Assembly: GCA_050732395.1 (NCBI GenBank)
Contig: JBOHQX010000300.1
Span: forward strand, 6,312 to 70,311
Length of the DNA: 64,000 nt
Reading direction: 5' to 3'
Origin: a bacterium
GTDB lineage: Bacteria > Zhuqueibacterota > Zhuqueibacteria > Zhuqueibacterales > Zhuqueibacteraceae
Shown: positions 27,849 through 50,950 of the stretch, one piece after another
How positions within the stretch are numbered: the stretch's first letter is position 1
Layout: each line of letters begins with the position of its first letter
Translations under genes and position numbers: made by a program
Notes under the pieces: model-generated
The model's input: the letters and a program-made list of their open reading frames with translations, nothing else
What the model was told of the DNA's origin: nothing
Databases searched by the model: none

Positions 27849-27922
27849 GAAATGACTTCGCAAGAAGTGAAAGGAACGAGCTAACCCAATCATCGCAAGA
27901 ATGCAAGAGCTTTTCAACATAG

Positions 27923-27995
<73 letters not shown>

Positions 27996-28082
27996 TTGGA
28001 AAGGCAAAGAGAAAACGTCAAACAGAAAAAAGCAAACGGCGAAAAGAAAAAAGCAAAACCGAGCGGCTTTGCTGTGAGGTCG

Positions 28083-28155
<73 letters not shown>

Positions 28156-35939: not shown

Positions 35940-35955
35940 CGAAAGCACTGCTACC

Positions 35956-36335: not shown

Positions 36336-36864
36336 AACGTTTAGTCGTCTGGCTCAGATAACTCCCAAGACTGATCTGATTGCAGAGCCATACGACTCAA
36401 TTCCTCTTCACCAAAACCGTTTCTGCCCTGTCATTCAAGCCTTACAAAATCATCTTCTGAATTACTTCCTTCCTTATAGCCTCTCTCCTGAAGCGCACCA
36501 AATCTTTTCTGGATTTTTCGCAAATCAAGCAAAGTCAAGTATAATAGTGAGCGTAAAGACCTCTCCAGCACGACTGCAAGCATGAAGGGGAAGGATTCCC
36601 TACCGAGAACGGACTCTCCATTTTTCGATTTTGCAGGTCACCTAAATGATAAATTAATTCGTAGCTGTTCGGCTCTACCCTGTCGTCCCCAAAAACATGG
36701 CGACTTCCGATTTACGATCGCAGACCGACAATCGAAAATCGAAAATCGTCAATCCGCTGAACAGTCACATTAGTTCATAATCCGCCCAGCGAGGAAGGGC
36801 GCACGGCAAACAGCGTTCAAACTGCATTTTGGTTGACTTAAATGGACCCGTTTATCTTCTTGCC

Positions 36865-39555: not shown

Positions 39556-39597
39556 GGTCCGAGCAATCGCTCGTTGCAAGCGATGTAACAGTCGACG

Positions 39598-39640
39598 AAA
39601 GGCCGGTCGTGCCCCATGGGTATGGCCGGCCTTTTGTTTT
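39598..39640. terminator. bidirectional intrinsic-terminator-like hairpin between convergent genes
   Basis: aaaggccgg (39598-39606) pairs with ccggccttt (39626-39634), followed by tgtttt. A-run on the left and T-run on the right. It lies between the FN3 gene stop (39555) and the cytochrome gene stop (39723). Confidence 0.6.
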
Positions 39641-39722: not shown

Positions 39723-40784
39723 TCAAAACATCGGATACTCACTCATAAACACATTTATCTTCCCGTTCATATGCTTGGTGCTGTCAGTGATCACCCCAAA
39801 GCCATCGACGACACCGAAATGACAATTCGTGCATGCCGTAATCGGAAAGGGGTTGTGCCCGGTGGGCGGAAGCCCGTGGCAGGAGCCACAAGAGGCCGTG
39901 GCCGGATTCGTCCAATTTGGCACAGCCGAGTTGCCGGTCATGACGTCAGCGGCGTACATGAATTCGTTATCCCCGGCTTGGGCTTTGCGCAGGCCCCAAT
40001 TGCCATGACAATAGCTGTTGCTGCACGTATTGGCGTTGAAATCATAAACAACTTGCGGCGCGCGATTGCCGCCTTCGGTTTTCAAATTGCTCAGCGGACC
40101 GTTGAATACCAGCTCGGCGCGGTTGTTGTCATCAATATGGCTCGCATCGGAAAAGTTGGTGGGCACAACGTGGCATTCCTGACAAATCTCGCGCGCGGGC
40201 AAGTGCTTGAAATAGCCGAGATGCGTTTGGTGCGCGCCCACGGCGGGTGTGGTGGAGCCGGTTTCTCCATCCAATCCTTCGGGCGGCGCGGCGTTGCGCA
40301 GATCCGCGGCATCACGGCCCGAATTACCGTGGCAATTATTGCAAGCCTCCGGACCGCCTTCCTGCGAGTGGCAAGTAACGCAGGAATTGTTCACTTTCAC
40401 TAGACTATAATCCTGGCCATGGCACGGTTGGCAAGAGGCCAAATCGTAATTATTGTTCTTCAAATAGACGTAATGCGAGCTCGAGCCCGACACCCAACCG
40501 GAAGCGGGGTGCGGGAAACTTGCATGGCAGGTGTAGCACGCGACTCCCGCCGTGCCACCGTCATATTGGCTGCCATGGCACGGGCGGCAATTTTCGGTAT
40601 TGTAGTTTTGCTTCGCCAGCACCGCGCCATGGAAGTTCGGCGAAGACGGGTCGAGCCAGCCTTCGCCGTGCACACTCACTTCGTTTTGCACGCCCGTAGG
40701 GGCATCTTGTGGCTCACTGCAAGCGTGGAACATGAGGGCGGCTAACGAGAGCAACACCACCAAAATTATTTGCATTCTTTTCAT
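39723..40784 (-). CDS. multihaem c-type cytochrome of the CxxxxCH/CxxCH (Geobacter-type motif) family, possible lipoprotein; 9 haem sites
   Basis: The ATG at 40784 gives MKRMQIILVVLLSLAALMFHAC (Cys after the signal-like segment). My count is 8 CxxCH (CRPCH, CYTCH, CQPCH, CVTCH, CNNCH, CQECH, CGSCH, CTNCH) plus 1 CxxxxCH (CSNSYCH), the latter followed by GNWG as in the named family. Confidence 0.85.
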   Translation of the reverse strand: MKRMQIILVVLLSLAALMFHACSEPQDAPTGVQNEVSVHGEGWLDPSSPNFHGAVLAKQNYNTENCRPCHGSQYDGGTAGVACYTCHASFPHPASGWVSGSSSHYVYLKNNNYDLASCQPCHGQDYSLVKVNNSCVTCHSQEGGPEACNNCHGNSGRDAADLRNAAPPEGLDGETGSTTPAVGAHQTHLGYFKHLPAREICQECHVVPTNFSDASHIDDNNRAELVFNGPLSNLKTEGGNRAPQVVYDFNANTCSNSYCHGNWGLRKAQAGDNEFMYAADVMTGNSAVPNWTNPATASCGSCHGLPPTGHNPFPITACTNCHFGVVDGFGVITDSTKHMNGKINVFMSEYPMF

Positions 40785-40826
40785 TTTATTCCCTTTGCGG
40801 GTAATGCCAACAAGTAAACCTTCTTT

Positions 40827-41166
40827 CAACACAGAGACCCAGAGTGCACGGAGTGTCACAGCGCGGCGTTGCCGCAACAAGAAAAACTCACGCAGAGCCT
40901 CGCAAAGATTCGCAGAGATTTCCGGCTGGCAAAGTCGCAACCAAAATCTTTGCTAAAATGCAAAGCTTTACAAGTTTGTATTACAGAGGAAGTACGCTCG
41001 CTCCGTTACTCTCTGTAATACAAAATTGTTGAACTTTGCTTTTTTAGCAAAGTTTTTGATTACGACTCTGCTGCCCTGTAAATCTCTGCGAGTCTTTGCG
41101 AAGCTCTGCGTGCGTCATTTTTTTTTGCGGCTACGCCGCGCTGTGCGCTCCGTGTCTCTGTGTTGG
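40827..41166. repeat. 340-bp imperfect palindrome (two ~160-bp arms, 22-nt centre)
   Basis: The left arm starts caacacagagac (40827) and the right arm ends gtctctgtgttg (41166). The centre is gtattacagag (40978-88) / ctctgtaatac (41011-21). Colinear blocks include cacgcagagcctcgcaaagattcgcagagattt vs the reverse complement cacgcagagcttcgcaaagactcgcagagattt. The arms match at roughly four in five positions by eye. Confidence 0.85.
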
Positions 41167-41348
41167 AAGGCTTTTGCGTTTTTATGCTGTACGAAGTACT
41201 TCAGCTTTCGGCTTGTTTGAAAGAATGATATAGTTCTTTTCCGAGCTATTTCGTGCGGTTCTGTGGCCGAGTCAACCAAGATCCCTACGGGATGACATAT
41301 CAAGGACTTCGTTGAAGACAGATTGCTCAGCGGGACATTGCGCTGCTA

Positions 41349-42569
41349 TCACTTGCCGCCCGGCGCGAGATTCGTATGGCAGATGACGCAAACGGGATCG
41401 CGGCCCTCCACGTCGTGGCAAGAGGCGCAGGATTCCATGTCCCGGCGTGCCAGCCTGGCATGCTGGCCGCCTTCGCTGCCCAAGCCGAGGAGCACGAAAT
41501 CGGGCGTGCGATGGCTGAGCGGAAATGGCGTCGCAAAACCGGCTTCTTGATTGCGCGCGTGGCATTCGGCGCAGAAGGTTTGCACGTTGTGGCACGAGTA
41601 ACAATCCGACTGCCTGGCGCGCAGATCGAGACTGTGTACGAACACATAGTTCAATTCGTGCACGTTTTCTATAACCAAGGGATTTTTGCCGGAAGGTTCC
41701 GGGCGATTTTCCGGCACACTGCGCACCGGAGCGCCACTGGTGAATTGTAATGTAGGCTCCGCGTGGCACTGCTGGCAAAAATTCTCGGTGTGGCAGGAAG
41801 CGCAGTCGTTGGAGGTATGCTCGGCACGCACCAAGCGCTTGTGCTCTTTAGCCCAATCCGGCAGGCGGTGCGAGAGCGGCAGCATGGTCTCTATTCTGGG
41901 ATGGCAAGATTCGCAGGCGTTGGTGGCTTTCGCATCGTTATGGCAGGAATAACACGTGGCCATGCTGGGCAGAAAGGCCACGCTGGGCTTTACCGATTTC
42001 TCAATGCCTTTATGGCAAACGGCGCAGTCGAGATCTTGGCTTTCGATATGCTGTTTGTGGCTGAAGACAATATCCTCGCGAGCAGGAGCTGCAAAGGCTT
42101 CGAGCTGATCAATATCCGTGTGACAATATTTGCAATCCTCCATATTCTCACTCTCGACCTCGGCATGGCAGGTCGAGCATTCGGCATGCTTCGGAAACAA
42201 CAGATCGCCGGCCTTTTCGCTGGTTTGCGCAGCGGCATGGCAAGCGTTGCATTCCGCGCCGACTTCTTCGAGGTGTTGTTTGTGTGAGAATTTAATTTTA
42301 GCCCACTGCGCCACGGGGTCGCCCCATGACGAGGGCCGGTCGTCACCCGCTCGCAAGATGGTCGCTATTGCCAATAGGCCCAATACGAAAACATGCGAGC
42401 AGGCGTTCTTGCCTCTCCGGACAAAAAGGCAAAAGCATACACGCAAAGATGCAGAGACGCAAAGGTCCGCAAAGAAAGCGCTTTGCACAATCTTTGCATC
42501 TCTGTCCCGCAGTCTCGGGATGCGCTTTTCTGTTTTGGGGATGCAGTTCGAAGGCCTAGTGCTGGACAT
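41349..42569 (-). CDS. dodecahaem c-type cytochrome (c7/c3-type domain polymer-like), periplasmic candidate; start uncertain
   Basis: I count 12 CxxCH: CNACH, CSTCH, CKYCH, CAVCH, CYSCH, CESCH, CASCH, CQQCH, CYSCH, CAECH, CASCH, CVICH. Recurring F(S)HKQH motifs are typical of c7-type units. The first ~50 codons of the track ORF translate a repeat-like sequence (ADLCVSASLRVCFCLF), so the true start is probably internal (hydrophobic HVFVLGLLAIATILRA). Confidence 0.85.
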   Translation of the reverse strand: MSSTRPSNCIPKTEKRIPRLRDRDAKIVQSAFFADLCVSASLRVCFCLFVRRGKNACSHVFVLGLLAIATILRAGDDRPSSWGDPVAQWAKIKFSHKQHLEEVGAECNACHAAAQTSEKAGDLLFPKHAECSTCHAEVESENMEDCKYCHTDIDQLEAFAAPAREDIVFSHKQHIESQDLDCAVCHKGIEKSVKPSVAFLPSMATCYSCHNDAKATNACESCHPRIETMLPLSHRLPDWAKEHKRLVRAEHTSNDCASCHTENFCQQCHAEPTLQFTSGAPVRSVPENRPEPSGKNPLVIENVHELNYVFVHSLDLRARQSDCYSCHNVQTFCAECHARNQEAGFATPFPLSHRTPDFVLLGLGSEGGQHARLARRDMESCASCHDVEGRDPVCVICHTNLAPGGK

Positions 42570-42582
42570 TTTTTCTCCCTCC

Positions 42583-43878
42583 TCATGATGCTGCGCTCAG
42601 TTTGGTGAAGAACCAATACTGTAGTCGAAACATGAAACGGACATCATTCTTATAGTAGCGATTGTGCAAGAGTTGGAACTGCCCGTCGAGCGTCAGTTTT
42701 TTCATGGGCCGCACAAGCAGGCCGGCAGCGCCGGAGAACAGGGATTCGCGCTCCGGAGCATCCCCATCTAGTTTGTACGTGGCCCAGGAGAGTTGCACAC
42801 TGGGCATGAACTGGTTGCGGCGCGTGGGATAATAAAACGAGGCGTTGAGGCCGTCCAGATTGCCGGCATAGCCGCCGCGATGCACGTAGCTGACACCGCC
42901 GTACTTCAGCTCCGTTCCCACCGTGAGGCGCAAGGATTCGTCGCCGGAGTAGAAAATTGCGGCAGCATTGCCATAAAGACGCAACGACGGTCGGTACTGG
43001 TAATAAAACCCGCCTTCGACCTCGTGGTTGTCTTCGACATTGAAAGCAGAAAAAATCGAATTCCAGGGCAGGCGGGGAGAGCGGTAGATATAATTGCCGG
43101 TCAAAATCATTTCGGGCGAGATTTCCGCGCGCACGGAAAGATCGCCACGCGCCAGCTCTTCGGCGTGAAAATCATAATCGCTGCGAGCATACAGAGAAGT
43201 TTTGGCATTTACGAACCAGGAGGCGTCGAGCGAGCCCAATCGAGACGCGCGATCCGTGGGCTCGACGTAGAGCGTAAACACGTTGCCCACGGAATCTGCC
43301 CGCTGTGCATCGTAGCCGGGACGCAATTGCCGTTTATCAAAAAAGCTAAGGCTCAGATTCAAATCTGTCTTCGGGGTCCATACCGCTTGTCCGCCGGCCA
43401 TGTAATTTTGGTCGAAATCGTCGATCACTTTGACGCGCTGATCGGCCGGCAGCAAGCCGCCTCCGAATGCTTTCAGGCGTAACCAGGGCGCGGCCCGCAC
43501 CTTGATTTGCGCGCCGTCAATCGTACCCACCGCCACACCGCCGAAAACCGGTTGGCGGCCAAACTGTACATCGACGCGCTGCGCAATGTTCTTCCACTCC
43601 AAATACAAATTGTACATGCGCGCCTTGCCGTCGCCGGCGAGCGGGGTGCTGAAATCGGTGTCAAACTGACCATAGCTGCGCACCAGAATGTTTTTCGTGG
43701 AGAAATCGATTTGATAGGCCTGGTAACCGCGCGCAGAACTGGATTCGATGTTGATCGAGTCGCTGCGCTGGAAGGCATACAACGAGCTGGTGAGCCGGCC
43801 GGAGAGTGTTTGCGCGTTCGACATCGAAGGCAAGGCAAGGCTGAGCAACAGCAGGCAAATATTTCGCAATCGCGTCAT
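42583..43878 (-). CDS. outer-membrane beta-barrel (porin-like) protein
   Basis: Signal peptide MTRLRNICLLLLSLALPSMSNAQ. It shows alternating aromatic/hydrophilic strand patterns throughout (YAFQRS, YQAYQIDFS, VRSYGQFDTDFS, LYLEW, YARSDYDF, FYYQYRPSLRLYGNAA, RFMFRLQYWF). The stop is 13 nt from the maximal start of the 12-haem gene. Confidence 0.7.
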   Translation of the reverse strand: MTRLRNICLLLLSLALPSMSNAQTLSGRLTSSLYAFQRSDSINIESSSARGYQAYQIDFSTKNILVRSYGQFDTDFSTPLAGDGKARMYNLYLEWKNIAQRVDVQFGRQPVFGGVAVGTIDGAQIKVRAAPWLRLKAFGGGLLPADQRVKVIDDFDQNYMAGGQAVWTPKTDLNLSLSFFDKRQLRPGYDAQRADSVGNVFTLYVEPTDRASRLGSLDASWFVNAKTSLYARSDYDFHAEELARGDLSVRAEISPEMILTGNYIYRSPRLPWNSIFSAFNVEDNHEVEGGFYYQYRPSLRLYGNAAAIFYSGDESLRLTVGTELKYGGVSYVHRGGYAGNLDGLNASFYYPTRRNQFMPSVQLSWATYKLDGDAPERESLFSGAAGLLVRPMKKLTLDGQFQLLHNRYYKNDVRFMFRLQYWFFTKLSAAS

Positions 43879-43933
43879 TGTGCGCCGCCTCGGGGCATGT
43901 GTACAATTCTTGCCGTTTAATCCCCACGTGTTA

Positions 43934-44005
43934 TGTCATGCTGGAAGCATCTTTTTCAGTACGGCCGTGGGGCTCGATGCTTGAAAAGATCCTTCCAGGA
44001 TGACA
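43934..44005. repeat. inverted repeat, inner-core member of the TGTCATGCTG... family
   Basis: tgtcatgctggaagcatctttttc (43934-57) pairs with gaaaagatccttccaggatgaca (43983-44005). It lies between the T9SS cytochrome stop and the barrel gene start. Confidence 0.75.
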
Positions 44006-44025
44006 TTGAGACGAACCGGATAGCC

Positions 44026-46836
44026 TTATTTCATCATGACCATCTTCTTCATCATTGAGAACTTCTCGCTTTCGAGCCGATAGAGGTATAGGCCGGAGGG
44101 CACGATGTTCCCGGCCCGGTCGCGACCGTCCCAAACGATGAGATGATAGGCCGCTGCCTGATCGCTATCCACCAGCTGCCGCACCTGATGGCCGAGCGCA
44201 TCGAAGATGGTGATACGCACATGGCCCGGCTGCGGCAATTGATATTTGATCGTGGTTTCAGGATTGAATGGGTTCGGGTAATTCTGCTCGAGCGCATATT
44301 CGGTGGGCGTGCCGCCGCCACGTTCTTCCACCCGCGTGATCACCCCGACCTCGGAAGAGTACGGGCTTTCATTGCCCGAGTAGTCAAAGGTGGACAAACG
44401 ATAATAATATGTGCGTCCGCTCGATACTTGATTGTCGGTGTATTCCGTCTGGATGAGCGTGGCCAGCGGCGTTGTTCCTTTGGGATCAAACCCGGGCGTC
44501 GTGCCGCGATAGATTGCGAAATATTTGAAATCTTCATCAATGGGACCATCCCATCTCAAGTTGACGGTGCCGGCAACATAGCTGGCTGCGATATTAGTTG
44601 GCGGCGCCGGCGCGAGGTTGTCGACCGAATATCCGCTGTCTGGCGCGGTCTCGTAAACCACGCCGTTCGCCTGGCCGGAAATGAAGAACACTGACCAATG
44701 CAGGCCCGCAGCGGTGCTGTCATAAAGCGTGGGCGCGACCGTACTATAGGCCTCGTAAGCGGAAGCCGGTAACCAGCCAACAAAATCCCAAGTTTCGGCC
44801 TGATTGACCGTATAGCGCTTGCCAACGTTGCTCAAGAGGCCATTCGCAATCAGCTCTTCTTTGGAACCGAGCTGAATGCCGACACTGGTGGCAACATCAT
44901 CGACGCGCCTCCAGATCGAATAGCTCGTCACTGGATTGGTTGACGCTGGACCGTCGGCGGCAAATTTCGACCACATGAGGCGTACTTGCTTGCCTTGATC
45001 GCCGCCCACGTCCTCGATTGAGACGATTTCGCCCGCGCCTACATCGCCGGTGGTCAGCGTGGCGATGGAGCGGCGCAGCAAGGCAATTGCGTAGCCGGCA
45101 TTGTGCACACCGCGACTTCCGTCCTCCTCGACAAACAACAAATTGTACCACGCATTGGTGTAGGCGTGACGCCGTTCGATTTCCGCCTGCGACAAGCCCG
45201 GTAGTGTCCAATCATAGTTTGCTTTAATCACCGCATCCGAGGTGCGCGGCGGCAGCAACTGGTCGAGACGGTGCTCCAAGCCTTCGATTTCAAGGCGCGT
45301 GCCCTCAATGGTGCCGTCTTCGTCGAAATCCGCCTTGGCCGCAATATCGTCGAAAGACGTAATCGGGCCGTGGCACGTCTGGCAAACGGCGACGTTTTGC
45401 ACGTCATCGCCATGATCGTCGGGTGTGCCGTTATCCGTGCTTACAGCGAAGGTGTGTTGTCCAACTTTGTCATGTCCGGGCTGGCCCTCTGCCGGCGTGG
45501 CGCCCATATGGCAAGTCACACAGGCATCTGCGACAGCGAACTTGTGGCCGGAGCTCCCGATCGGCACGCCATATTCGATGGCATTGGAACCGTCAATCAT
45601 GTCGGCCTGATTGCTATGATGCGGGCCGAAGCGCGTGGAAAGATTGGCGGGATTGCTGACATAGTCCACCGCATCGCGGCGGCTGATGTGGCATTGCATA
45701 CAGATTTTGCCCATGCCGCCGTAATTGACTACGGTCACACTATCGCCCAGGGTGACATCGTTCAAGGTCCGCACTTGCGCCGGCAACAATTCCGACCGGT
45801 GCGGATCGTGGCAAACCGCGCAACTAATCTGCTCAAAGCCGCTGGACGGCCGGGTATCCGGATTCTTGGGATCGACAACTCGAATAAAGCCCCAGCCGGA
45901 ATGGCAACGAGTGCAACTGGGATTGGTCGAAGGCGAAAGCACACCCACTGCATGCCTGGATGCTTTCCACTGCGTACTGATGCGATGATACGGCGCTTCT
46001 TCATGACAGTAGCCGCACGAGGCCTCGTCCAGGCTCATCGCGATGCTGGTCTTGTCGCCCCGATGCTGCGTTGCCGGCCCATGGCAGTTTTCGCATTGGA
46101 TATTTGCTCTCGCCGCCAGCTTGGGATACTGCGAGACCAGCGCGGCGTAGTTGCCGGGCTGCAACGTCGGCGGAAAAGTCCAGCCGACTTCTCTTGCCAC
46201 GTCATCAAAACCTTCATTGACGGCCGCGGGGCTGTCGTCAAATCCAACATTGTGGCATTCGATGCAAGATTCGTTGTAAGAACCAAGCTGGCCGTCAATC
46301 GCGCGTTTGAAAAATGTTGCATGGCCAGTTTTACCCCAGGCGGTGAAATTGGCGCTGTGGCACAAGCTGCATTGCCCTTCCGAAGGCTCCGAAGGCAAGC
46401 CGTCTGTGCCACCCACCCCGGCGAACTTCGCCGAGGTGATCGTAGTCGTCTTCGGCGCGCTGGTTCCGCCCGCCGTGGTGATCTGCAATTGCACGGTGAA
46501 TTTGCCTTCAATGTCCGGTTTGAAGGTGGTTTGTCTCTTGTTCGTACTATCCAACACCGCAGTGGAGCCTGCAGGCCTTGCCGTCAACGACCAGGCATAA
46601 CTGGTCACGGCGGCATTGAGCGAGTCACGGCCGAGGAGATAGACCACCTGGCCCACGCCGACAACAGACAAACCAGTTGAGCGAGGCGAAGTCCAGCCCA
46701 AGTCATGAATCTCTTGAGGGCTGTAACCTTCGATCTTGATGATCGCATTTGGAACTTGCGCATGCGTGGGAGGAACCAAGAAAGTCGTAGCTATCATCGT
46801 TGCGGCCAGCACACGCCATAGTATCGAGCACATCAT
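44026..46836 (-). CDS. extracellular-type 9-haem c-type cytochrome with N-terminal PKD/Ig-like domain, FN3 domain and T9SS C-terminal sorting domain
   Basis: GGAGG lies 5 nt upstream of the ATG at 46836. Signal peptide MMCSILWRVLAATMIATTFLVPPTHAQ. I count 9 CxxCH: CSLCH, CIECH, CENCH, CGYCH, CTRCH, CAVCH, CMQCH, CVTCH, CQTCH. The FN3-like unit is APAPPTNIAASYVAGTVNLRWDGP...YYYRLSTFDYSGNESPYS. The C-terminus is LEQNYPNPFNPETTIKYQL...SGLYLYRLESE...MVMMK. Confidence 0.85.
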   Translation of the reverse strand: MMCSILWRVLAATMIATTFLVPPTHAQVPNAIIKIEGYSPQEIHDLGWTSPRSTGLSVVGVGQVVYLLGRDSLNAAVTSYAWSLTARPAGSTAVLDSTNKRQTTFKPDIEGKFTVQLQITTAGGTSAPKTTTITSAKFAGVGGTDGLPSEPSEGQCSLCHSANFTAWGKTGHATFFKRAIDGQLGSYNESCIECHNVGFDDSPAAVNEGFDDVAREVGWTFPPTLQPGNYAALVSQYPKLAARANIQCENCHGPATQHRGDKTSIAMSLDEASCGYCHEEAPYHRISTQWKASRHAVGVLSPSTNPSCTRCHSGWGFIRVVDPKNPDTRPSSGFEQISCAVCHDPHRSELLPAQVRTLNDVTLGDSVTVVNYGGMGKICMQCHISRRDAVDYVSNPANLSTRFGPHHSNQADMIDGSNAIEYGVPIGSSGHKFAVADACVTCHMGATPAEGQPGHDKVGQHTFAVSTDNGTPDDHGDDVQNVAVCQTCHGPITSFDDIAAKADFDEDGTIEGTRLEIEGLEHRLDQLLPPRTSDAVIKANYDWTLPGLSQAEIERRHAYTNAWYNLLFVEEDGSRGVHNAGYAIALLRRSIATLTTGDVGAGEIVSIEDVGGDQGKQVRLMWSKFAADGPASTNPVTSYSIWRRVDDVATSVGIQLGSKEELIANGLLSNVGKRYTVNQAETWDFVGWLPASAYEAYSTVAPTLYDSTAAGLHWSVFFISGQANGVVYETAPDSGYSVDNLAPAPPTNIAASYVAGTVNLRWDGPIDEDFKYFAIYRGTTPGFDPKGTTPLATLIQTEYTDNQVSSGRTYYYRLSTFDYSGNESPYSSEVGVITRVEERGGGTPTEYALEQNYPNPFNPETTIKYQLPQPGHVRITIFDALGHQVRQLVDSDQAAAYHLIVWDGRDRAGNIVPSGLYLYRLESEKFSMMKKMVMMK

Positions 46837-46875
46837 AAACACCTCCGTATGAGGTTTTCGCGTAGACTCCAAATT

Positions 46876-47012
46876 GACATAGTTAAGTTAAGATTGCACC
46901 CCTCAAATTGTCATGCTGTAAGCATCCTCCCTAGTTCTTATGCAGGATTTGGGGAAGATTCCTAAAGGAATGACAATCAATATTATCATTCTCGAAGCAA
47001 CTTAACATTGTC
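46876..47012. repeat. 137-bp nested-palindrome MITE/REP-like element (second full copy)
   Basis: The outer inverted repeat is gacatagttaagtta (46876-90) / caacttaacattgtc (46998-47012). The inner core is ttgtcatgctgtaagcatcctccc (46908-31), with a degenerate right partner ggggaagattcctaaaggaatgacaa (46951-76). It sits 40 nt upstream of the T9SS cytochrome start. Confidence 0.8.
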
Positions 47013-47360
47013 GGGCTAAGATCTACCTCTGCTTTTCAGACAGACTGAAAACAGAAGCCCTACGGGCAGCACACGCGGATCAACAACGCACACGGAAAAG
47101 CTTTCAATCCGCGTGAGTTTTTGATCCGTGTGTAAACTTTCAGAATTTTATTCCATGTTTGTTTCCTTAAGCGCCTATGAGGGGTATAGAAGCAACAGTT
47201 ATACCCGGGAATCTTGATATATTTCATTTTAACATATTGATACTTCGATGGGGTTTCTATTTCCATCTGACCGTCTCTATCGGATTTGAGAAACTGCGAA
47301 AAGTTTTTCTCAAATTTCGGAAATTATTCACAATACATTACGGCATTGTGCACAGCGCTT

Positions 47361-47413
47361 GGGAAGATGCTTGCAGCATGACCTCCCTGGTAGTGGCATT
47401 GACTTAACGTTGC
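47361..47413. repeat. solo right half of the MITE/REP-like element
   Basis: gggaagatgcttgcagcatgac (47361-82) followed by gacttaacgttgc (47401-13). No left half is present. Confidence 0.65.
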
Positions 47414-47451
47414 AGTGATAGGTAAGCCACGTCAACAGTCATATCCGACGC

Positions 47452-48969
47452 TTACATACCCGCTGCAATGCCGTGGCATTCATGACAGCTCGTCTCCTTC
47501 CAGGCGTCGCCGATGTCGATCGGATGTGCGAATTCCAATCCTTTCAGGTCCATCTGCTGCACCTCATTGCCGTTGCCTTGTTCAATGATCAAATGGCAGG
47601 CGTTGCAATCGCGGGTAATAGTTTTGCCCTCCGCACTTTGGTGCAAGCCGTCGTGGCAGCGATAACAGCCCGGGCTGAGATAGTGCCCGATGTGATTGGG
47701 ATACGCGCGCCAGCTCGATTTCATGTAGGGAAAATTGTTGCGAGCATAGACTTCCTGCACGCGCTGAATGGCATTGTCTACGGCCTGCCGCTTTTGCGGC
47801 ACCAGGTCGGGATAGTTGGCGTCATAAAACGCGCGAATCGTGGAATCAATCGCAGCCAGCGCCGCTTCTTTGGTTGGATATTCCGGCGTGAGCGCCTCTA
47901 CGGCGGTGGCTTTGATCGAAGGCAGGCTCATGTCGATCAAGCCGTTGCTCATGATAGTGTTCAAAGCAATATTGGGCGCTTGGAAAATGTGCGCAGGTCT
48001 GTTGTGGCAATCGATGCAGTCCATGACCCGAATTTTCTTGGCGTCGATTTGGCCATTTGACATGAGGGCTGGATCAGAGGAATAAACCGTGACTTCGCCT
48101 TTGGCATTGGTGGCACGCACCCAGGGAATGACCTCGCGCGATTCGTCCGTGGCATAGTACTCGATTTTGTTGCTGATGTTCATGTGCCAATGAATCCCCG
48201 AAGTGTGCCCCTCTTCCTGACTGCCGCCGCCGATCTTTATCAGCAGGTTGTAGGCCCAGCGCGTGTTGTGCTCGTCCTTCATGAAGTGCACGCGCATATC
48301 CTGCTTGTTGCCGAAAAACGCCTGCGGCCAGTGGCAATGCTCGCACGTTTCACGCGCCGGGCGCAGATTTTCGATCGGCGTGGGAATCGGCCGGGAATAC
48401 TTCTTGAACAACACCGAATAGACCTGATAAGCGCCGGAGAGCTTCGATTGCACGTACCACCCGGCGCCCGGGCCGACGTGGCAACCGGCGCAGGTCACGC
48501 GCGCATGCGGCGAGTTCTGATAGGCGGTGTATTCCGGCTCCATGACCGTGTGACAGGTTTTGCCGCAAAAGGTCGTGGATTCGCTGAACTCATAGGCTTT
48601 GTAACTGCCCACGGCGGTGAAGAGCAAAAAGAGCGTGGTGACGATTCCCACGATTGCGGCCATGCGGCGATGGCGCGGCAGATTGAAATCGATGTGCAGC
48701 AAGGCGGGCTCGGTCGCGGAGCGGCTGCGGCGGCGATGCTCGCGCCACATGCCGATGGGAACGAGCACCAACCCCAAAACCAAAAACGCAGGAAAGACGA
48801 GATAGGTGAGAATACCGAGATAAGGCATCGTGGTCTCGGCAAAAAAATCCACTAAAAAGAAAAACAATATACAGGCAAAGCTCACGGCCGCAATCCCGGC
48901 GCCCATCATGCTGACGGTGTTGTAGAATGACCCGGGGAGCTTGCCGCTTTTTTCTAGCGATTCTGCCAT
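47452..48969 (-). CDS. inner-membrane multihaem cytochrome, ImcH-like architecture (3 TM + NapC/NirT-like region, 7 haem sites)
   Basis: AAGGAAG lies upstream of the ATG at 48969. Three hydrophobic helices are present (GAGIAAVSFACILFFFLVDFF; YLGILTYLVFPAFLVLGLVLVPIG; MAAIVGIVTTLFLLFTAVG). The haem sites are one CX3CH (CGKTCH) and six CxxCH (CAGCH, CEHCH, CIDCH, CYRCH, CNACH, CHECH). Confidence 0.75.
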   Translation of the reverse strand: MAESLEKSGKLPGSFYNTVSMMGAGIAAVSFACILFFFLVDFFAETTMPYLGILTYLVFPAFLVLGLVLVPIGMWREHRRRSRSATEPALLHIDFNLPRHRRMAAIVGIVTTLFLLFTAVGSYKAYEFSESTTFCGKTCHTVMEPEYTAYQNSPHARVTCAGCHVGPGAGWYVQSKLSGAYQVYSVLFKKYSRPIPTPIENLRPARETCEHCHWPQAFFGNKQDMRVHFMKDEHNTRWAYNLLIKIGGGSQEEGHTSGIHWHMNISNKIEYYATDESREVIPWVRATNAKGEVTVYSSDPALMSNGQIDAKKIRVMDCIDCHNRPAHIFQAPNIALNTIMSNGLIDMSLPSIKATAVEALTPEYPTKEAALAAIDSTIRAFYDANYPDLVPQKRQAVDNAIQRVQEVYARNNFPYMKSSWRAYPNHIGHYLSPGCYRCHDGLHQSAEGKTITRDCNACHLIIEQGNGNEVQQMDLKGLEFAHPIDIGDAWKETSCHECHGIAAGM

Positions 48970-49340
48970 ACTTATCTTCCTTGTTGAATTCTTTGCGGGC
49001 AATGGTGAAACGCTTGCGGTTGTCTCCGTGCCGGCTGCTCTTCTTCGCGCCACAACAAGCAAAGACATTCTTCACGCCCGCCAACTAGCGGCAGCGTAGT
49101 CCATGAACCGATCACATGGAACTGTTCGAAGCGAGCACCTTGTGACAGCCGTGGCAGTGACCGCATATTGGAACGTCGAAAGACAGTTGGGTAACAGCAG
49201 GTCGGGCTAGCAAAACAATTGGAGTGGTGGAGTTACAGCGTATTGGAACATTAAATTGTTGGATGAGTGAAAAAGTTATGCACTTCCTGTGCAGGTAATA
49301 TTGATCTTGCTTTTAAACAAAACCTCACCATTCTCCCTTC

Positions 49341-49396
49341 CTACCTCCACTCCACTACTCCATCAATCCACCAATCCAGTAATCCATCAATCCACA
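49341..49396. repeat. octamer array (ATCCANNA family) directly 3' of the tetrahaem gene stop
   Basis: ctacctcc actccact actccatc aatccacc aatccagt aatccatc aatccaca. It uses the same words as 26871-26921. Confidence 0.8.
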
Positions 49397-49400
49397 GTTT

Positions 49401-49955
49401 TTACTGCTTGGGCGTCGTGTGCGCAATCTTCTTACTGTATTCTGCAAAATTGAACCCCTTGAAATTTGGGCTTTCGGAATTGTGGCAGGTCAAACAGAGT
49501 TTTTCGTCGCCTTTGACCAGGCCGACAGTCTCGCCCTTGATCTTGCCGGTATCGATATCCTTCATGACTTGCATGCCTTTATATTCTGAACCGGCGCCAT
49601 GGCAAGATTCACAGCCTACGCCCTGGCCCGGCTTGAAAGTGGACGCCAGTTGGGCCGCGGCCACTCCCGCTGCGGTATCATGGCATTTCAGACAAGCGGC
49701 ATCTTTTTGCGGATCGGCGATGCCTTTTTGCTTGGCGATCTCCAACGCTGCAGGCGTGGCGAGCGTGGCAAACGCTTTGGCATGCAGACTCTTCTGCCAA
49801 ATCGTGAATGCCGCGCCGGTCTTGGGCGCCAGATGACAAGGCTTGCAGGTATTAGCGCCGACATATTTGGCTTTGCTTTGCGCCAAGAGCGCGCAGGGTA
49901 CGATCGTGCAAATCGCAATGGTCGTAGCAGCCATGCTTTTCAAACGCGCCATCAT
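49401..49955 (-). CDS. periplasmic tetrahaem cytochrome c (cytochrome c554-like family)
   Basis: AAAGGAA lies upstream of the ATG at 49955. Signal peptide MMARLKSMAATTIAICTIVPCALLAQS. There are 4 CxxCH (CKPCH, CLKCH, CESCH, CLTCH). The N-terminal YVGANTCKPCH...WQKSLHAKAF is typical of c554-type proteins. Confidence 0.8.
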   Translation of the reverse strand: MMARLKSMAATTIAICTIVPCALLAQSKAKYVGANTCKPCHLAPKTGAAFTIWQKSLHAKAFATLATPAALEIAKQKGIADPQKDAACLKCHDTAAGVAAAQLASTFKPGQGVGCESCHGAGSEYKGMQVMKDIDTGKIKGETVGLVKGDEKLCLTCHNSESPNFKGFNFAEYSKKIAHTTPKQ

Positions 49956-50207: not shown

Positions 50208-50950
50208 TTACAACTGGGCCTTCTCAGCGTCCCGCCAAAGCGCAGTAACATTCGAAGAACTCGGCTTGTAACTCGGCAATGCTTTCATGTATTGCGCCCG
50301 CTCGAAAGCAGAAGGATCGGCACAATTCTTCTGGCTCATACTACCGCGCATTTGCCGGACGGATTCGTATTCGTGTTCTGCCATCCATTGCCGCAAGCTC
50401 TGCTCAATGCTGCGAAGATGATCAATGCCCTGACGCAACAGCGTCGCGGCCATCATCGTGATATTCGCTCCCACCATCAACATCTTGATCACGTCCGGCG
50501 CCTCGTGAATGCCGCTGGTCGCGGCGAGGTCGGCGCGGATGCGGCCATGAAGAATGCCGATCCACGTCAAGGGCAGCCGTAAGGCTTGCGGCGTGCTGAG
50601 CAGCACGTTCGGGCGAACTTCCAGGGTTTCCAGGTCGAGGTCCGGTTGATAAAAGCGCGTTTGGCGCGGCGGATGTGCTCGAGATACGCATCCGGTCCGA
50701 GATGAAATGCTTCCGGCTGGGGAAAGTATGTGAGCGCTTCCGGAAAACTCTCGGTACCATTGGTCAGGTGATGATTGAGCTCATAAGTTTCGAGCCGCAA
50801 TTGTTCTTCGAACAAAGAATGCAGCACCACCGCCGCCGCGCCCGCATCTTCCATGCGTTTGATGTTGCCGATCTCTTCTGAAAGCGGCGACGCCGAAGGC
50901 ACCAGCGGCGTACGGAGCTTCAGGCCGAGGTAGGTGGTTGTGAGGTCCAT
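50208..50950 (-). pseudogene. dihydroorotate dehydrogenase-like (class 1 DHOD fold) gene with large internal deletion and frameshift
   Basis: The N-terminal piece is [50 protein letters not shown]...EHIRRAKRA. In another frame it is joined directly to [38 protein letters not shown]...ERAQYMKAL. The ~120-aa FMN-barrel core normally between these segments is absent. Confidence 0.7.

What the first reader, a model, noticed from the sequence alone, without database searches (positions are those of the whole stretch)
39723..49955. Six-gene multihaem cytochrome / beta-barrel locus: candidate complete extracellular electron transfer (EET) route in a T9SS-type genome
All six genes are on the minus strand. 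In transcription order they are:
- a c554-like tetrahaem protein (49955-49401);
- an ImcH-like 3-TM protein with 7 haem sites (48969-47452);
- a 9-haem cytochrome with PKD-like, FN3 and T9SS CTD modules (46836-44026);
- a 431-aa beta-barrel (43878-42583);
- a 12-haem c7-polymer-like protein (42569-41349);
- a CxxxxCH/CxxCH lipoprotein-like cytochrome with 9 haem sites (40784-39723).

My motif count is 4+7+9+12+9 = 41 haem sites. The parts list mirrors the Geobacter logic of an inner-membrane quinol oxidase (ImcH/CbcL), periplasmic carriers, and a porin-cytochrome conduit (OmaB/OmbB/OmcB). Here it is assembled from different families, in a genome whose surface proteins use T9SS-type sorting. 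I do not know of a characterised EET conduit of this composition.
Basis: partly seen in the sequence, partly recalled or inferred. Interest (0 to 1): 0.85.

Follow-up and report, generated by a model that had tools for sequence, protein, structure and literature searches.

The report
Outer-membrane electron conduit gene cluster
This stretch of an uncultured KSB1-type bacterium encodes a chain of haem proteins plus an outer-membrane barrel that most likely carries respiratory electrons out of the cell; most of it is a known kind, but one member looks like a Gram-positive surface iron reductase fitted with a type IX secretion tag, a link I found no paper describing.

Summary
All six minus-strand genes exist at the stated coordinates, and the haem-motif count (4+7+9+12+9 = 41) is exact.

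- **Core of the locus.** The barrel, the 12-haem cytochrome and the CxxxxCH lipoprotein cytochrome form a porin-cytochrome (Pcc) trio. The trio is strictly syntenic across KSB1, Calditrichaeota and Ignavibacteria genomes. It matches the published description of the Ignavibacterium album pcc cluster (Shi et al. 2014).
- **Gene 2** is an ImcH-family member, not merely "ImcH-like". It has three transmembrane helices, a CX3CH motif followed by six CXXCH motifs, and the published ImcH signature residues at identical spacing.
- **Gene 3** is the unusual part. Its nine-haem domain is homologous to OcwA, the cell-surface terminal reductase of the Gram-positive Thermincola. Here that domain is fused to PKD-like and FN3 modules and a type A T9SS sorting domain.
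- **Not a fixed unit.** The six genes are not conserved as one set. ImcH and the c554-like gene are only loosely linked to the barrel. Distant gene-3 homologues stand alone. The intergenic gaps hold palindromic repeat insertions, one of which lies in the 5' end of gene 5.

No member of this cluster type has been tested experimentally here, and the direction and substrate of electron flow are inferred.

Verdict: a real, probably functional extracellular electron transfer locus. It is a new variant of a known kind and moderately interesting.

The parts
49401..49955 (-). Gene 1: tetrahaem c554-like cytochrome of 184 aa with a cleavable signal peptide. It is the predicted soluble periplasmic electron carrier.
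   Evidence: PF13435 E 2.5e-17. Four CxxCH motifs. One N-terminal hydrophobic segment ending ALLA/QS. Orthologues sit 48-300 nt upstream of the barrel in most Ignavibacteria-type loci (12 of 15), in the position of IALB_1840.
47452..48969 (-). Gene 2: ImcH-family inner-membrane heptahaem quinol oxidase. It is 505 aa with three transmembrane helices, a CX3CH motif and six CXXCH motifs.
   Evidence: Three hydrophobic segments before residue 124. CGKTCH at residues 135-140, then six CxxCH. NapC/NirT/NrfH homology over residues 136-247 of the 538-aa ORF, which is 103-214 in 505-aa numbering. E130, K176, Q182 and Y191 lie at the same offsets from the haem-1 His as E127, K173, Q179 and Y188 of G. 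sulfurreducens ImcH.
44026..46836 (-). Gene 3: 936-aa secreted nonahaem cytochrome. Domain order: signal peptide, PKD-like beta domain (residues ~31-136), OcwA-like haem domain (~150-596), beta domain (~604-735), FN3 (~745-833), flexible linker, T9SS type A C-terminal sorting domain (~853-934).
   Evidence: Nine CxxCH. AlphaFold2 pLDDT 83.9 with the secondary-structure layout described. Profile match to PDB 6I5B (OcwA) E 5.3e-18 and 6QVM (OmhA) E 7.6e-11. TIGR04183 at 34.4 bits against a cut-off of 23. At least 466 homologues, several named 'T9SS type A sorting domain-containing protein'.
45049..46389 (-). OcwA-like nonahaem domain within gene 3 (residues ~150-596), including three long C-terminal helices.
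   Evidence: The HMM alignment to OcwA covers profile positions 148-596 against chain residues 17-501. Eight of nine haem motifs align in order. Helices 513-527, 550-571 and 577-595 appear in the model. OcwA is described as a globular haem domain plus a C-terminal three-helix bundle.
44035..44280 (-). T9SS type A C-terminal sorting domain of gene 3.
   Evidence: TIGR04183 and PF18962 hits at ORF residues 865-945. Beta-sandwich at residues 861-934 after a low-confidence linker at 836-858. The NYPNPFNP motif is shared with four other sorting-domain proteins in the window.
42583..43878 (-). Gene 4: 431-aa outer-membrane beta-barrel with a signal peptide (SNA/QT). It is the predicted sheath of the trans-outer-membrane conduit.
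   Evidence: AlphaFold2 pLDDT 87.9, pTM 0.76, 24 strand elements, two of them short, so 22-24 barrel strands. Foldseek finds only generic outer-membrane barrels with TM below 0.5. No Pfam or NCBIfam family. The family has 786 cluster representatives at E<=1e-3.
41349..42569 (-). Gene 5: dodecahaem c7-repeat cytochrome of 406 aa as called. It is the predicted periplasm-facing haem wire inserted in the barrel.
   Evidence: Twelve CxxCH. Best PDB match is 3OV0, E 2.9e-13; I know 3OV0 as GSU1996, the output names it only 'cytochrome c family protein'. It lies directly downstream of the barrel in 32 of 32 informative loci. Orthologues in distant KSB1, Calditrichaeota and Ignavibacteria are ~400 aa with 14 haems, matching the description of IALB_1838.
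42385..42558 (-). Insertion of about 174 nt, plus a 1-nt deletion, in the 5' end of gene 5 relative to the closest relative L001. It puts the ancestral ATG out of frame. The ORF now starts at a new ATG (42569) behind an AGGAGG sequence and carries about 58 extra N-terminal residues before the signal-peptide core.
   Evidence: Pairwise DNA alignment. Start-codon survey. The insertion contains a CTTTGCGnnnCTTTGCG-type motif like those of the 40823-41169 palindrome. The same 406-aa ORF is called in two other assemblies.
39723..40784 (-). Gene 6: lipoprotein cytochrome of 353 aa with 8 CxxCH and 1 CxxxxCH. It is the predicted outer-face partner of the conduit.
   Evidence: TIGR01904 E 1.4e-11. The Cys of the lipobox-like ...A/G/S-C-S-D/E motif is invariant in 15 aligned orthologues, as are the CxxxxCH motif and six CxxCH motifs. 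The gene follows gene 5 in 25 of 26 informative loci.
40823..41169 (.). Nested palindromic element of about 350 nt between genes 5 and 6, resembling a miniature transposable element (MITE-like).
   Evidence: Five nested inverted-repeat pairs. RNA fold -224 kcal/mol, z = -22.5. In the relative L001 the gene 5 and gene 6 matches lie about 26 nt apart.
46910..47382 (.). Element in the 580-nt gap between genes 2 and 3, bounded by 25-nt inverted repeats (GTCATGCTGTAAGCATC...). Short hairpin copies of the same repeat lie at 43933-44006 (between genes 3 and 4) and at 28428-28499.
39595..39637 (.). Strong GC-rich hairpin between the convergent ends of gene 6 and the FN3/T9SS gene. It is a candidate bidirectional terminator marking the end of the cluster.
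   Evidence: 20-bp stem with 11 GC pairs. This is a pattern match only.

Best explanation
The locus encodes an extracellular electron transfer pathway of the porin-cytochrome (Pcc) type in a bacterium of candidate division KSB1 (Zhuqueibacterota). The proposed route is as follows.

1. The ImcH-family heptahaem protein (gene 2) oxidises menaquinol at the inner membrane. It releases electrons and protons to the periplasm.
2. The small c554-like tetrahaem protein (gene 1) shuttles electrons across the periplasm.
3. The 12-haem c7-repeat cytochrome (gene 5) sits inside the 22-24-stranded barrel (gene 4). It carries electrons through the outer membrane, as MtrA does in MtrB and as is proposed for OmaB in OmbB.
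4. The lipoprotein cytochrome (gene 6) receives electrons on the outer face.
5. The OcwA-like nonahaem protein (gene 3) acquires its haems in the periplasm. It is exported by the type IX secretion system through its type A sorting domain and is probably tethered to the cell surface. There it acts as terminal reductase toward insoluble or extracellular acceptors such as Fe(III)/Mn(IV) oxides, humics or electrodes.

**Shown here:** the gene anatomy, haem motifs, family memberships, barrel fold, sorting signals and synteny.

**Inferred:** complex formation, topology of gene 6, actual T9SS export of a holo-cytochrome, the direction of electron flow and the acceptor.
For: - **Anatomy and motifs:**
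- **ImcH membership of gene 2.** It is 505 aa with three transmembrane segments, CX3CH next to the third segment and six CXXCH motifs. These are the family features listed by Zhong & Shi 2018. The four residues conserved around haem 1 of G. sulfurreducens ImcH lie at identical spacing. K and Q are invariant in 119 of 119 homologues.
- **ImcH function.** Geobacter ImcH is experimentally an inner-membrane cytochrome required for reduction of high-potential extracellular acceptors. The purified protein transfers electrons to PpcA and releases quinol protons to the periplasm.
- **Barrel.** A confident AlphaFold2 barrel with a signal peptide.
- **Gene 5.** It is related to the entry 3OV0, which I recognise as the Geobacter dodecahaem GSU1996.
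- **Gene 6.** Invariant lipobox Cys and CxxxxCH motif.
- **Synteny.** The barrel -> multihaem -> lipoprotein cytochrome order is conserved in 32/32 and 25/26 informative loci across KSB1, Calditrichaeota and Ignavibacteria.
- **Match to the published I. album pcc cluster.** The Ignavibacteria versions have the c554-like gene directly upstream, a ~400-aa 14-haem protein, and an outer cytochrome with an atypical motif. This matches the published description.
- **Gene 3.** Its haem domain is homologous to OcwA and OmhA, which are cell-surface iron reductases. It carries a type A T9SS domain, and a PorV/PorQ-family gene lies in the window.
- **Recurrence.** Multihaem ORFs ending in the NYPNPFN sorting-domain motif lie near the conduit in 15 of 38 related loci.
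Against: - No experiment exists for any member of this barrel family or for T9SS export of a cytochrome. No paper in the searchable library links T9SS and multihaem cytochromes.
- The six genes are not one conserved unit. ImcH lies within 10 kb in 4 of 20 loci and the c554-like gene in 14 of 26. Three distant gene-3 homologues have no conduit genes nearby.
- The intergenic gaps are long (about 150-600 nt) and filled with palindromic repeats, so co-transcription is doubtful.
- Gene 5 carries a 174-nt insertion in its 5' end that lengthens the pre-sequence and could impair export.
- The barrel has no detectable sequence or close fold relationship to a solved porin-cytochrome barrel. MtrB is not among the top 50 Foldseek hits, and there is no MtrB_PioB Pfam hit.
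- OcwA also reduces nitrite and hydroxylamine in vitro, so a catalytic role for gene 3 is not excluded.
- The identity with IALB_1839-1837 rests on matching descriptions, not on a direct alignment.
Confidence: 0.68

Rival explanations
1. The hardware is the same but runs in the opposite direction. The conduit would take up electrons from Fe(II), reduced minerals, a cathode or a syntrophic partner, and feed them to the quinone pool or periplasmic reductases.
For: Porin-cytochrome systems of the Mtr/Mto/Pio type work in both directions. Some Zhuqueibacterota are described as mixotrophs with hydrogenases and a carbon-fixation cluster. KSB1 genomes from a hydrothermal site were reported with Cyc2-type iron oxidase homologues.
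Against: ImcH homologues were found only in Fe(III) reducers in the 2018 survey and were interpreted as quinol oxidases only. OcwA and OmhA are reductases of iron oxides. The neighbouring pyruvate:ferredoxin oxidoreductase fits a heterotrophic, electron-disposing lifestyle. None of this is decisive.
Confidence: 0.12
2. Gene 3 is a catalytic multihaem enzyme of the NrfA/c554/MccA superfamily that acts on a soluble substrate at the cell surface or in the medium, such as nitrite, hydroxylamine, NO or a sulfur oxyanion. The other cytochromes would merely supply it with electrons.
For: The profile also touches NrfA (E 0.003) and c554. OcwA has two penta-coordinated haems with distal His-His motifs and reduces nitrite and hydroxylamine in vitro. 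Gene 3 keeps a nearly invariant His at the position aligned to OcwA's first HH motif, and an invariant H406 within a PHH sequence in the region of the second. Distant homologues stand alone, as an enzyme gene might.
Against: There is no CxxCK and no Cx15CH motif. The best matches are the two surface iron reductases, not NrfA or MccA. OcwA's nitrite turnover is very slow, about 1 per minute. Export to the cell surface separates the protein from periplasmic N and S chemistry. No accessory genes of nitrite or sulfite reductase systems lie nearby.
Confidence: 0.1
3. The locus is a chance juxtaposition of independent modules rather than one route. The Pcc trio is one unit. ImcH is monocistronic as in Geobacter, and the c554-like and gene-3 genes each serve other pathways.
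For: Linkage of genes 1, 2 and 3 to the barrel is loose. imcH is monocistronic in G. sulfurreducens. The gaps between genes are long and occupied by repeat elements. The sigma-70-type promoter scan found no more sites than in shuffled sequence: 10 found, 6.6 +/- 2.3 expected.
Against: Five multihaem cytochrome genes and a barrel, all on one strand within 10.2 kb, with no unrelated gene between them. Close relatives keep ImcH, gene 3, barrel, gene 5 and gene 6 in the same order (L003, L009). In Ignavibacteria the order is sorting-domain cytochrome, c554-like gene, barrel. Independent transcription would not exclude a shared pathway.
Confidence: 0.1

Closest known systems
Ignavibacterium album pcc cluster IALB_1840-1837 (Shi, Fredrickson & Zachara 2014, PMC4245776) and the 'Geobacter-like pcc' clusters reported in Melioribacter roseus and Ignavibacteriales genomes from metagenomes (PMC6137239, PMC7399161)
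   Same: Same gene order and parts: a periplasmic small cytochrome, a porin-like barrel, a large periplasmic multihaem cytochrome (400 aa with 14 haems in I. album) and an outer-membrane cytochrome with an atypical CX>2CH motif. The Ignavibacteria loci recovered here with the window's barrel show exactly this layout.
   Different: The window is from KSB1/Zhuqueibacterota, whose phylum description does not mention cytochromes of this kind. Gene 5 has 12 rather than 14 haems, and gene 6 has 9 rather than 7 motifs. An ImcH gene and a 936-aa OcwA-like T9SS cargo are part of the same string. The link to the I. album proteins is by matching description; no direct alignment was possible.
Geobacter sulfurreducens porin-cytochrome complexes (OmaB/OmbB/OmcB, Ext clusters)
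   Same: The logic is the same: a barrel, a periplasm-side multihaem cytochrome and an outer lipoprotein cytochrome, encoded side by side. Published Pcc barrels have 18-22 predicted strands and 5-14 haems on the periplasmic partner.
   Different: No detectable sequence relationship of this barrel to characterised barrels was obtained. Shi et al. themselves place the I. album proteins as distant outliers. The surface component here includes a T9SS-sorted protein, which Geobacter lacks.
ImcH (GSU3259), the inner-membrane cytochrome of G. sulfurreducens
   Same: [quoted passage not shown]
   Different: In Geobacter imcH is monocistronic and not next to a conduit. Here, and in a few relatives, it sits in the cluster. 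No direct pairwise alignment with GSU3259 was possible.
OcwA (Thermincola potens, PDB 6I5B) and OmhA (Carboxydothermus ferrireducens, PDB 6QVM), cell-surface terminal reductases of Gram-positive bacteria
   Same: Nine CxxCH haems in the same order, a c554-like N-terminal module and an NrfA-like C-terminal module with long terminal helices. Both are extracytoplasmic surface proteins.
   Different: The host has two membranes. The haem domain is embedded between a PKD-like domain and beta, FN3 and T9SS sorting domains. OcwA's first His-His motif is Tyr-His here. A 2022 study found this family 'very poorly represented', whereas at least 466 T9SS-tagged relatives were found here.
GSU1996-type dodecahaem 'c7 polymer' (PDB 3OV0, identified from memory)
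   Same: Twelve haems built from c7-type units; best PDB hit of gene 5 (E 2.9e-13).
   Different: To my knowledge GSU1996 is a soluble periplasmic protein, not encoded next to a barrel. Gene 5's conserved position suggests an MtrA/OmaB-like role.
Shewanella MtrCAB
   Same: Conceptually the same: a barrel-sheathed decahaem wire plus a surface lipoprotein cytochrome.
   Different: No MtrB_PioB family signal, and MtrB is not among the top fold matches. From my own knowledge, the Shewanella surface cytochromes are exported by a type II secretion system.

Membership tests
ImcH family (inner-membrane quinol-oxidising heptahaem cytochromes) | About 495-519 aa with three N-terminal transmembrane helices | tested here: met
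   505 aa. Hydropathy segments at 17-49, 47-76 and 102-124. Criterion taken from PMC6295460.
ImcH family (inner-membrane quinol-oxidising heptahaem cytochromes) | Atypical CX3CH motif immediately after the membrane domain, followed by six CX2CH motifs | tested here: met
   CGKTCH at 135-140, then CxxCH at 160, 209, 318, 435, 455 and 495. 119 of 120 listed homologues share CX3CH plus six CxxCH.
ImcH family (inner-membrane quinol-oxidising heptahaem cytochromes) | Conserved residues around haem 1: E127, K173, Q179 (distal ligand) and Y188 relative to H137 of GSU3259 | tested here: met
   E130, K176, Q182 and Y191 relative to H140, at identical offsets.
ImcH family (inner-membrane quinol-oxidising heptahaem cytochromes) | Direct sequence similarity to GSU3259 | not testable with these tools
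Only NapC/NirT/NrfH homology was shown.
Porin-cytochrome (Pcc) gene cluster, as defined by Shi et al. 2014 | A porin-like outer-membrane beta-barrel gene (18-22 predicted strands) adjacent to a periplasmic multihaem cytochrome gene (5-14 haems) | tested here: met
   A barrel of 22-24 strand elements is followed 14 nt later by the 12-haem gene. Adjacency holds in 32 of 32 loci.
Porin-cytochrome (Pcc) gene cluster, as defined by Shi et al. 2014 | An outer-membrane (lipoprotein) multihaem cytochrome gene in the same cluster | tested here: met
   Gene 6 has an invariant lipobox Cys and 8+1 haem motifs. It is present in 25 of 26 loci. Its outer-membrane location is predicted only.
Porin-cytochrome (Pcc) gene cluster, as defined by Shi et al. 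2014 | BLAST-level similarity to OmaB/OmbB/OmcB or to IALB_1839-1837 | not testable with these tools
The genome scan did not return I. album itself. Named cluster members were uninformative.
Porin-cytochrome (Pcc) gene cluster, as defined by Shi et al. 2014 | The three proteins form a trans-outer-membrane complex that conducts electrons | not testable with these tools
   This needs biochemistry, or at least a multimer structure prediction.
OcwA/OmhA family of nonahaem/undecahaem surface reductases | Nine CxxCH haems colinear with OcwA, and significant sequence similarity over the whole haem domain | tested here: met
   Profile against 6I5B gives E 5.3e-18. The aligned stretches cover profile positions 148-596 and include 8 of 9 haem motifs in order.
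OcwA/OmhA family of nonahaem/undecahaem surface reductases | C-terminal three-helix bundle of the NrfA type | tested here: met
   Predicted helices at 513-527, 550-571 and 577-595. This region aligns to the end of OcwA, including the GVHN motif.
OcwA/OmhA family of nonahaem/undecahaem surface reductases | Two penta-coordinated haems with distal His-His motifs (H281/H282 and H380/H381) | tested here: inconclusive
   The first site reads Y-H, with the His nearly invariant. The second region has invariant H406 within a PHH sequence, but the register of the alignment is uncertain.
OcwA/OmhA family of nonahaem/undecahaem surface reductases | Close fold match of the haem domain | tested here: inconclusive
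   The whole-protein Foldseek search was dominated by the FN3/Ig domains. The haem domain could not be searched on its own.
T9SS type A cargo | C-terminal type A sorting domain above the curated cut-off, plus an N-terminal Sec signal peptide | tested here: met
   TIGR04183 at 34.4 bits against a cut-off of 23. Signal peptide ...THA/QV.
T9SS type A cargo | T9SS machinery encoded in the genome | tested here: inconclusive
   A PorV/PorQ-family protein scores 151.9 bits against a cut-off of 90, and four other cargo proteins lie in the window. The core genes (SprA, PorKLMN, PorU) are not in this 64-kb window.
MtrB/PioB barrel family | Match to PF11854 or a fold match to MtrB | tested here: not met
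   No hit in any of 48 family members. MtrB is not in the top 50 Foldseek matches.

The most novel reading that the evidence does not exclude
The type IX secretion system is the export and anchoring route for a terminal metal reductase. An OcwA-type nonahaem cytochrome has so far been characterised only on Gram-positive cell walls and was considered rare. Here it is a widespread T9SS cargo in bacteria with two membranes of the Fibrobacterota-Chlorobiota-Bacteroidota (FCB) group: KSB1, Calditrichota, Rhodothermia, and a short form in Ignavibacteria. On the cell surface it would take electrons from a Pcc conduit. That would give T9SS a role in respiration. It would also tie together the Gram-positive and Gram-negative solutions to mineral respiration.
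Probability: 0.4. Interest if true: 0.75.

Novelty: new variant of a known kind. Interest (0 to 1): 0.58.

Why it matters
KSB1/Zhuqueibacterota, Calditrichota and Ignavibacteriota are abundant uncultured sediment, soil and hot-spring lineages. Their role in iron and manganese cycling is poorly defined, and the phylum description of Zhuqueibacterota does not mention this capacity.

The work gives four usable results:

1. A conserved, easily recognised three-gene marker (barrel, 12/14-haem cytochrome, CxxxxCH lipoprotein cytochrome). The barrel is missed by current domain libraries.
2. Residue-level evidence that ImcH-type quinol oxidases operate in these phyla.
3. A testable hypothesis that T9SS exports haem-loaded cytochromes to the cell surface.
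4. A large new reservoir of OcwA relatives, which bears on the proposed evolutionary link between c554, NrfA and the octahaem enzymes.

Cultivable carriers of the Ignavibacteria version of the cluster make the idea experimentally accessible.

Tried and rejected
1. **Known barrel family?** I tried to place the barrel in a known family. Pfam and NCBIfam gave nothing for the window protein. Some relatives gave only weak LptD, OMP_b-brl or Porin_4 hits. Foldseek gave only generic barrels with TM below 0.5. I therefore rejected 'MtrB-like'.
2. **Direct link to I. album or Geobacter barrels.** I ran an exhaustive profile search (786 relatives) and looked up names for ten distant representatives. Only metagenome entries came back, one from Marinimicrobia. 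No link was obtained.
3. **Fold search of gene 3.** The whole model returned FN3/Ig proteins only, which says nothing about the haem domain. The sequence-profile search was informative instead.
4. **Gene 6 and OmcE.** The gene 6 profile matched the OmcE nanowire subunit 7TFS at E 8e-6. The alignment rests mostly on haem motifs, and the best domain has an independent E-value of 0.0015. I kept this only as a weak lead.
5. **Nitrite or sulfite reductase?** Rejected as the primary reading for lack of CxxCK or Cx15CH motifs and accessory genes.
6. **Literature on T9SS plus multihaem cytochromes or EET.** Nothing relevant was found. This is absence in an open-access library, not proof of novelty.
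7. **Promoter and terminator scans.** They found no more sites than in shuffled sequence and were not used, apart from the hairpin at 39595-39637 listed in the parts as a pattern match.
8. **Assembly artefact in gene 5?** I considered whether the odd 5' end of gene 5 is an assembly error. Two other assemblies give the same ORF, so I treat it as real.

Full report

Yes. Six ORFs lie head to tail on the minus strand between 39723 and 49955, with no unrelated gene among them.

| Gene | CxxCH | Atypical motif |
|---|---|---|
| 1 | 4 | none |
| 2 | 6 | 1 CxxxCH |
| 3 | 9 | none |
| 5 | 12 | none |
| 6 | 8 | 1 CxxxxCH |

The total is 41, and no CxxCK motif occurs. Two other public assemblies carry the same locus.

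Domain searches confirm each label:
- Gene 1: c554 (PF13435).
- Gene 2: NapC/NirT/NrfH N-terminal region.
- Genes 3, 5 and 6: c7/c3 repeats.
- Gene 3: a T9SS type A sorting domain (TIGR04183) above its cut-off.
- Gene 6: the CxxxxCH/CxxCH domain (TIGR01904).

The window comes from a genome whose closest named relatives are candidate division KSB1 (Zhuqueibacterota) genomes assembled from metagenomes. It holds a PorV/PorQ-family gene and five proteins with T9SS type A sorting domains.

**2. The barrel and the conserved core**

Gene 4 has a signal peptide and no match in Pfam or NCBIfam. With an alignment of 48 homologues, AlphaFold2 gives a confident closed beta-barrel (pLDDT 87.9, pTM 0.76). 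The model has 24 strand elements, two of them very short, so 22-24 barrel strands. Foldseek finds only generic outer-membrane barrels (Occ porins, ushers, AlgE) with TM-scores below 0.5. MtrB is not among the top 50 matches. No family member hits the MtrB_PioB model. An exhaustive profile search finds 786 cluster representatives, nearly all 400-450 aa. It is therefore a sizeable, uncatalogued barrel family.

A scan of one genome per species returned 38 loci from KSB1, Calditrichaeota, Ignavibacteria/"Bacteroidota" genomes and one Gemmatimonadetes genome. Linkage to the barrel in informative loci:

| Gene | Position relative to the barrel | Loci |
|---|---|---|
| Gene 5 homologue | immediately downstream | 32 of 32 |
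| Gene 6 homologue | follows gene 5 | 25 of 26 |
| Gene-3-like haem domain | within 10 kb | 16 of 26 |
| c554-like gene | within 10 kb | 14 of 26 |
| ImcH | within 10 kb | 4 of 20 |

In most Ignavibacteria-type loci (12 of 15) the c554-like gene sits 48-300 nt upstream of the barrel. The core is therefore a three-gene module, and the other three genes are frequent but facultative neighbours.

**3. Relation to what is published**

Shi, Fredrickson and Zachara (2014) catalogued porin-cytochrome (pcc) clusters and included one from Ignavibacterium album. They describe four parts:
- IALB_1840, a periplasmic cytochrome.
- IALB_1839, a porin-like protein.
- IALB_1837, an outer-membrane cytochrome with an atypical haem motif.

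They note that these proteins are only distantly related to the Geobacter ones. The Ignavibacteria loci I recovered with the window's barrel have this layout, in this order:
- a tetrahaem c554-like gene;
- the barrel;
- a 400-412-aa protein with 14 CxxCH motifs;
- a CxxxxCH cytochrome.

Later metagenomic papers also report "Geobacter-like pcc" clusters in Ignavibacteriales and in the Fe(III) reducer Melioribacter roseus. I could not align the window proteins with the I. album sequences directly, so this identification rests on matching descriptions. It is nevertheless hard to explain otherwise.

In the window and its nearest relatives gene 5 has 12 haems and gene 6 has 9 motifs. More distant relatives have 14, and typically 7.

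**4. Gene 2 is an ImcH**

Zhong and Shi (2018) describe ImcH homologues as about 495-519 aa, with three transmembrane motifs, an atypical CX3CH next to the membrane domain and six CX2CH motifs. They report homologues in Calditrichaeota, Ignavibacteriae, Bacteroidetes and Gemmatimonadetes. Gene 2 fits this description:
- It is 505 aa.
- It has three hydrophobic segments before residue 124.
- It carries CGKTCH at 135-140.
- Six CxxCH motifs follow.

A 2023 preprint on purified G. sulfurreducens ImcH names the haem-1 histidine (H137), its unusual distal glutamine (Q179) and the conserved residues E127, K173 and Y188. In gene 2 the residues at the same offsets from the haem-1 His (H140) are E130, K176, Q182 and Y191. 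Among 119 homologues K and Q are invariant, Y is present in 106, and E or D in 117. This is a residue-level membership test, and it is met.

Functionally, ImcH is required in Geobacter for reduction of high-potential extracellular acceptors. The purified protein transfers electrons to the periplasmic trihaem cytochrome PpcA and releases quinol protons to the periplasm.

**5. Gene 3 is an OcwA-type cytochrome with a T9SS tag**

A search returned at least 466 homologues of 900-945 aa. They come from KSB1, Calditrichaeota and Rhodothermia, and where named they are annotated only as T9SS sorting-domain proteins.

A profile of 46 of them matches PDB 6I5B at E 5.3e-18 and 6QVM at E 7.6e-11. These entries are OcwA of Thermincola potens and OmhA of Carboxydothermus ferrireducens, cell-surface terminal iron reductases of Gram-positive bacteria. 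The alignment covers the whole haem domain, with eight of nine haem motifs in order. It also covers the C-terminal helices, including a shared GVHN motif.

The AlphaFold2 model (pLDDT 83.9) shows, in order:
- an N-terminal beta-sandwich (PKD-like);
- a helical haem domain ending in three long helices;
- two further beta domains (one FN3);
- a disordered linker;
- the sorting-domain sandwich.

OcwA's two distal His-His pockets are only partly recognisable. The first reads Tyr-His. The second region has invariant H406 within a PHH sequence.

In Ignavibacteria a short form of about 520 aa (nine haems plus sorting domain) sits just upstream of the c554-barrel genes. Related loci also carry other multihaem proteins that end in the same sorting-domain motif, with 8 or 16 haem motifs.

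Three distant homologues from other lineages stand alone among unrelated genes. The family is therefore not obligately linked to the conduit.

Three full-text searches found no paper connecting T9SS with multihaem cytochromes or extracellular electron transfer. The paper describing Zhuqueibacterota mentions neither haem proteins of this kind nor iron. A 2022 evolutionary study found OcwA/OmhA "very poorly represented" in databases.

**6. The remaining parts**

- **Gene 5.** Its best match among solved structures is entry 3OV0 (E 2.9e-13), which I recognise as the Geobacter dodecahaem GSU1996. This supports the "c7 polymer" label.
- **Gene 6.** It has a signal peptide ending in a Cys that is invariant in all 15 aligned orthologues and is followed by Ser-Asp/Glu. 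The CxxxxCH motif is also invariant. A lipoprotein is the natural reading. Surface exposure is an inference.
- **Weak lead.** The gene 6 profile weakly matches the OmcE nanowire subunit 7TFS. That alignment rests largely on haem motifs, so I treat it as a lead only.

**7. How it most likely works**

The proposed route is:
1. ImcH oxidises menaquinol at the inner membrane.
2. The c554-like carrier crosses the periplasm.
3. The 12-haem wire threads the barrel.
4. The lipoprotein cytochrome receives electrons on the outer face.
5. The T9SS-exported OcwA-like protein passes them to the external acceptor.

The shown steps are the anatomy, family memberships, sorting signals and synteny. The inferred steps are complex formation, topology, actual export of a haem-loaded protein by T9SS, the direction of flow and the acceptor. 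Rivals are electron uptake, a catalytic role for gene 3, and independent modules that merely sit together. None is excluded, and each is less well supported.

**8. Weak points**

- The intergenic gaps are long. They contain a palindrome of about 350 nt (-224 kcal/mol, z = -22.5) that is absent from the closest relative. They also contain copies of a second inverted-repeat family.
- Gene 5 has a 174-nt insertion and a 1-nt deletion at its 5' end. Together these shift the ancestral start codon out of frame and create a longer pre-sequence. Other assemblies show the same sequence, but its effect on export is unknown.
- No experiment supports any step in this lineage.

**9. Verdict**

The locus belongs to a kind already recognised by comparative genomics: the Pcc cluster of the I. 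album type plus ImcH. The new elements are the host phylum, the residue-level ImcH assignment, the definition of a large unannotated barrel family, and above all the OcwA-like nonahaem cytochrome carried as T9SS cargo. I rate it a new variant of a known kind, with interest 0.58.

Noticed in passing
window 40823-41169: A nested, near-perfect palindrome of about 350 nt lies between genes 5 and 6 (RNA fold -224 kcal/mol, z = -22.5). In the closest relative L001 the two gene matches lie about 26 nt apart. It looks like a MITE-like insertion and carries CTCTGCGnnnCTTTGCG motifs.
   Followed up: partly
window 42385-42558: A 174-nt insertion plus a 1-nt deletion lies in the 5' end of gene 5 relative to L001. 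The ancestral ATG is now out of frame. A new ATG behind an AGGAGG sequence opens the ORF, adding about 58 residues before the signal-peptide core. The same ORF appears in two other assemblies.
   Followed up: partly
window 28428-28499, 43933-44006, 46910-47382: A family of inverted repeats shares the arm GTCATGCTG(T/G)AAGCATC. Two copies are hairpins of about 72 nt, one of them between genes 3 and 4. One pair brackets 423 nt between genes 2 and 3. The motif gives 8 matches against 0.8 expected by chance.
   Followed up: partly
window 36133-36336 (-): A 69-residue fragment is 72% identical to residues 232-300 of gene 6, including the CxxxxCH motif. It lies between two T9SS cargo genes and is probably the remnant of a paralogue.
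   Followed up: partly
window 50208-50950 (-): Two overlapping ORFs match positions 2-100 and 218-331 of the dihydroorotate dehydrogenase-like protein model PRK07565. The gene between the pyruvate:ferredoxin oxidoreductase gene and gene 1 therefore appears frameshifted or decayed.
   Followed up: partly
L013, L014, L016, L017, L020, L029, L030, L033, L034 versus window, L003, L009, L010: Haem number varies within the conserved module. Gene 5 orthologues have 14 CxxCH in distant KSB1, Calditrichaeota and Ignavibacteria, but 12 in the window's close relatives. Gene 6 has 7 motifs in many orthologues (Calditrichaeota and several Ignavibacteria) and 9 in the window.
   Followed up: partly
L014 12495-14663: A 722-aa ORF with 23 haem motifs (22 CxxCH + 1 CxxxxCH) has a C-terminal part that matches gene 6. 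It is an enlarged or fused outer cytochrome in a marine KSB1 genome.
   Followed up: no
L003 7875-9725, L006 2635-4566, L016 17-1975, L014 17690-19084, L009 2403-5285 and 17563-19950: Further multihaem ORFs lie near the conduit genes and end in the NYPNPFN sorting-domain motif. They have 8, 9 or 16 haem motifs and span 464-960 aa. This suggests that T9SS-sorted cytochromes form several families in these phyla.
   Followed up: partly
L041, L042, L043: Distant gene-3 homologues (43-48% identity; one from Rhodothermia, two from genomes without a source name) are stand-alone genes with no barrel or cytochrome neighbours. In L042 a histidine kinase and a sigma-54 activator lie just upstream.
   Followed up: partly
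window 3780-9076, 26937-28112, 32139-39555: The window holds four more T9SS type A cargo genes, carrying among others peptidase-like, Calx-beta/NHL and seven-FN3 domains. It also holds a PorV/PorQ-family outer-membrane protein.
   Followed up: partly
L036 (Gemmatimonadetes genome): The most distant barrel homologue (26% identity) is followed by a gene-5-like tblastn match. The next ORF has only one CxxxCH and one CxxxxCH motif, and there is no gene 6. The module may be degenerate or divergent outside the FCB group.
   Followed up: no
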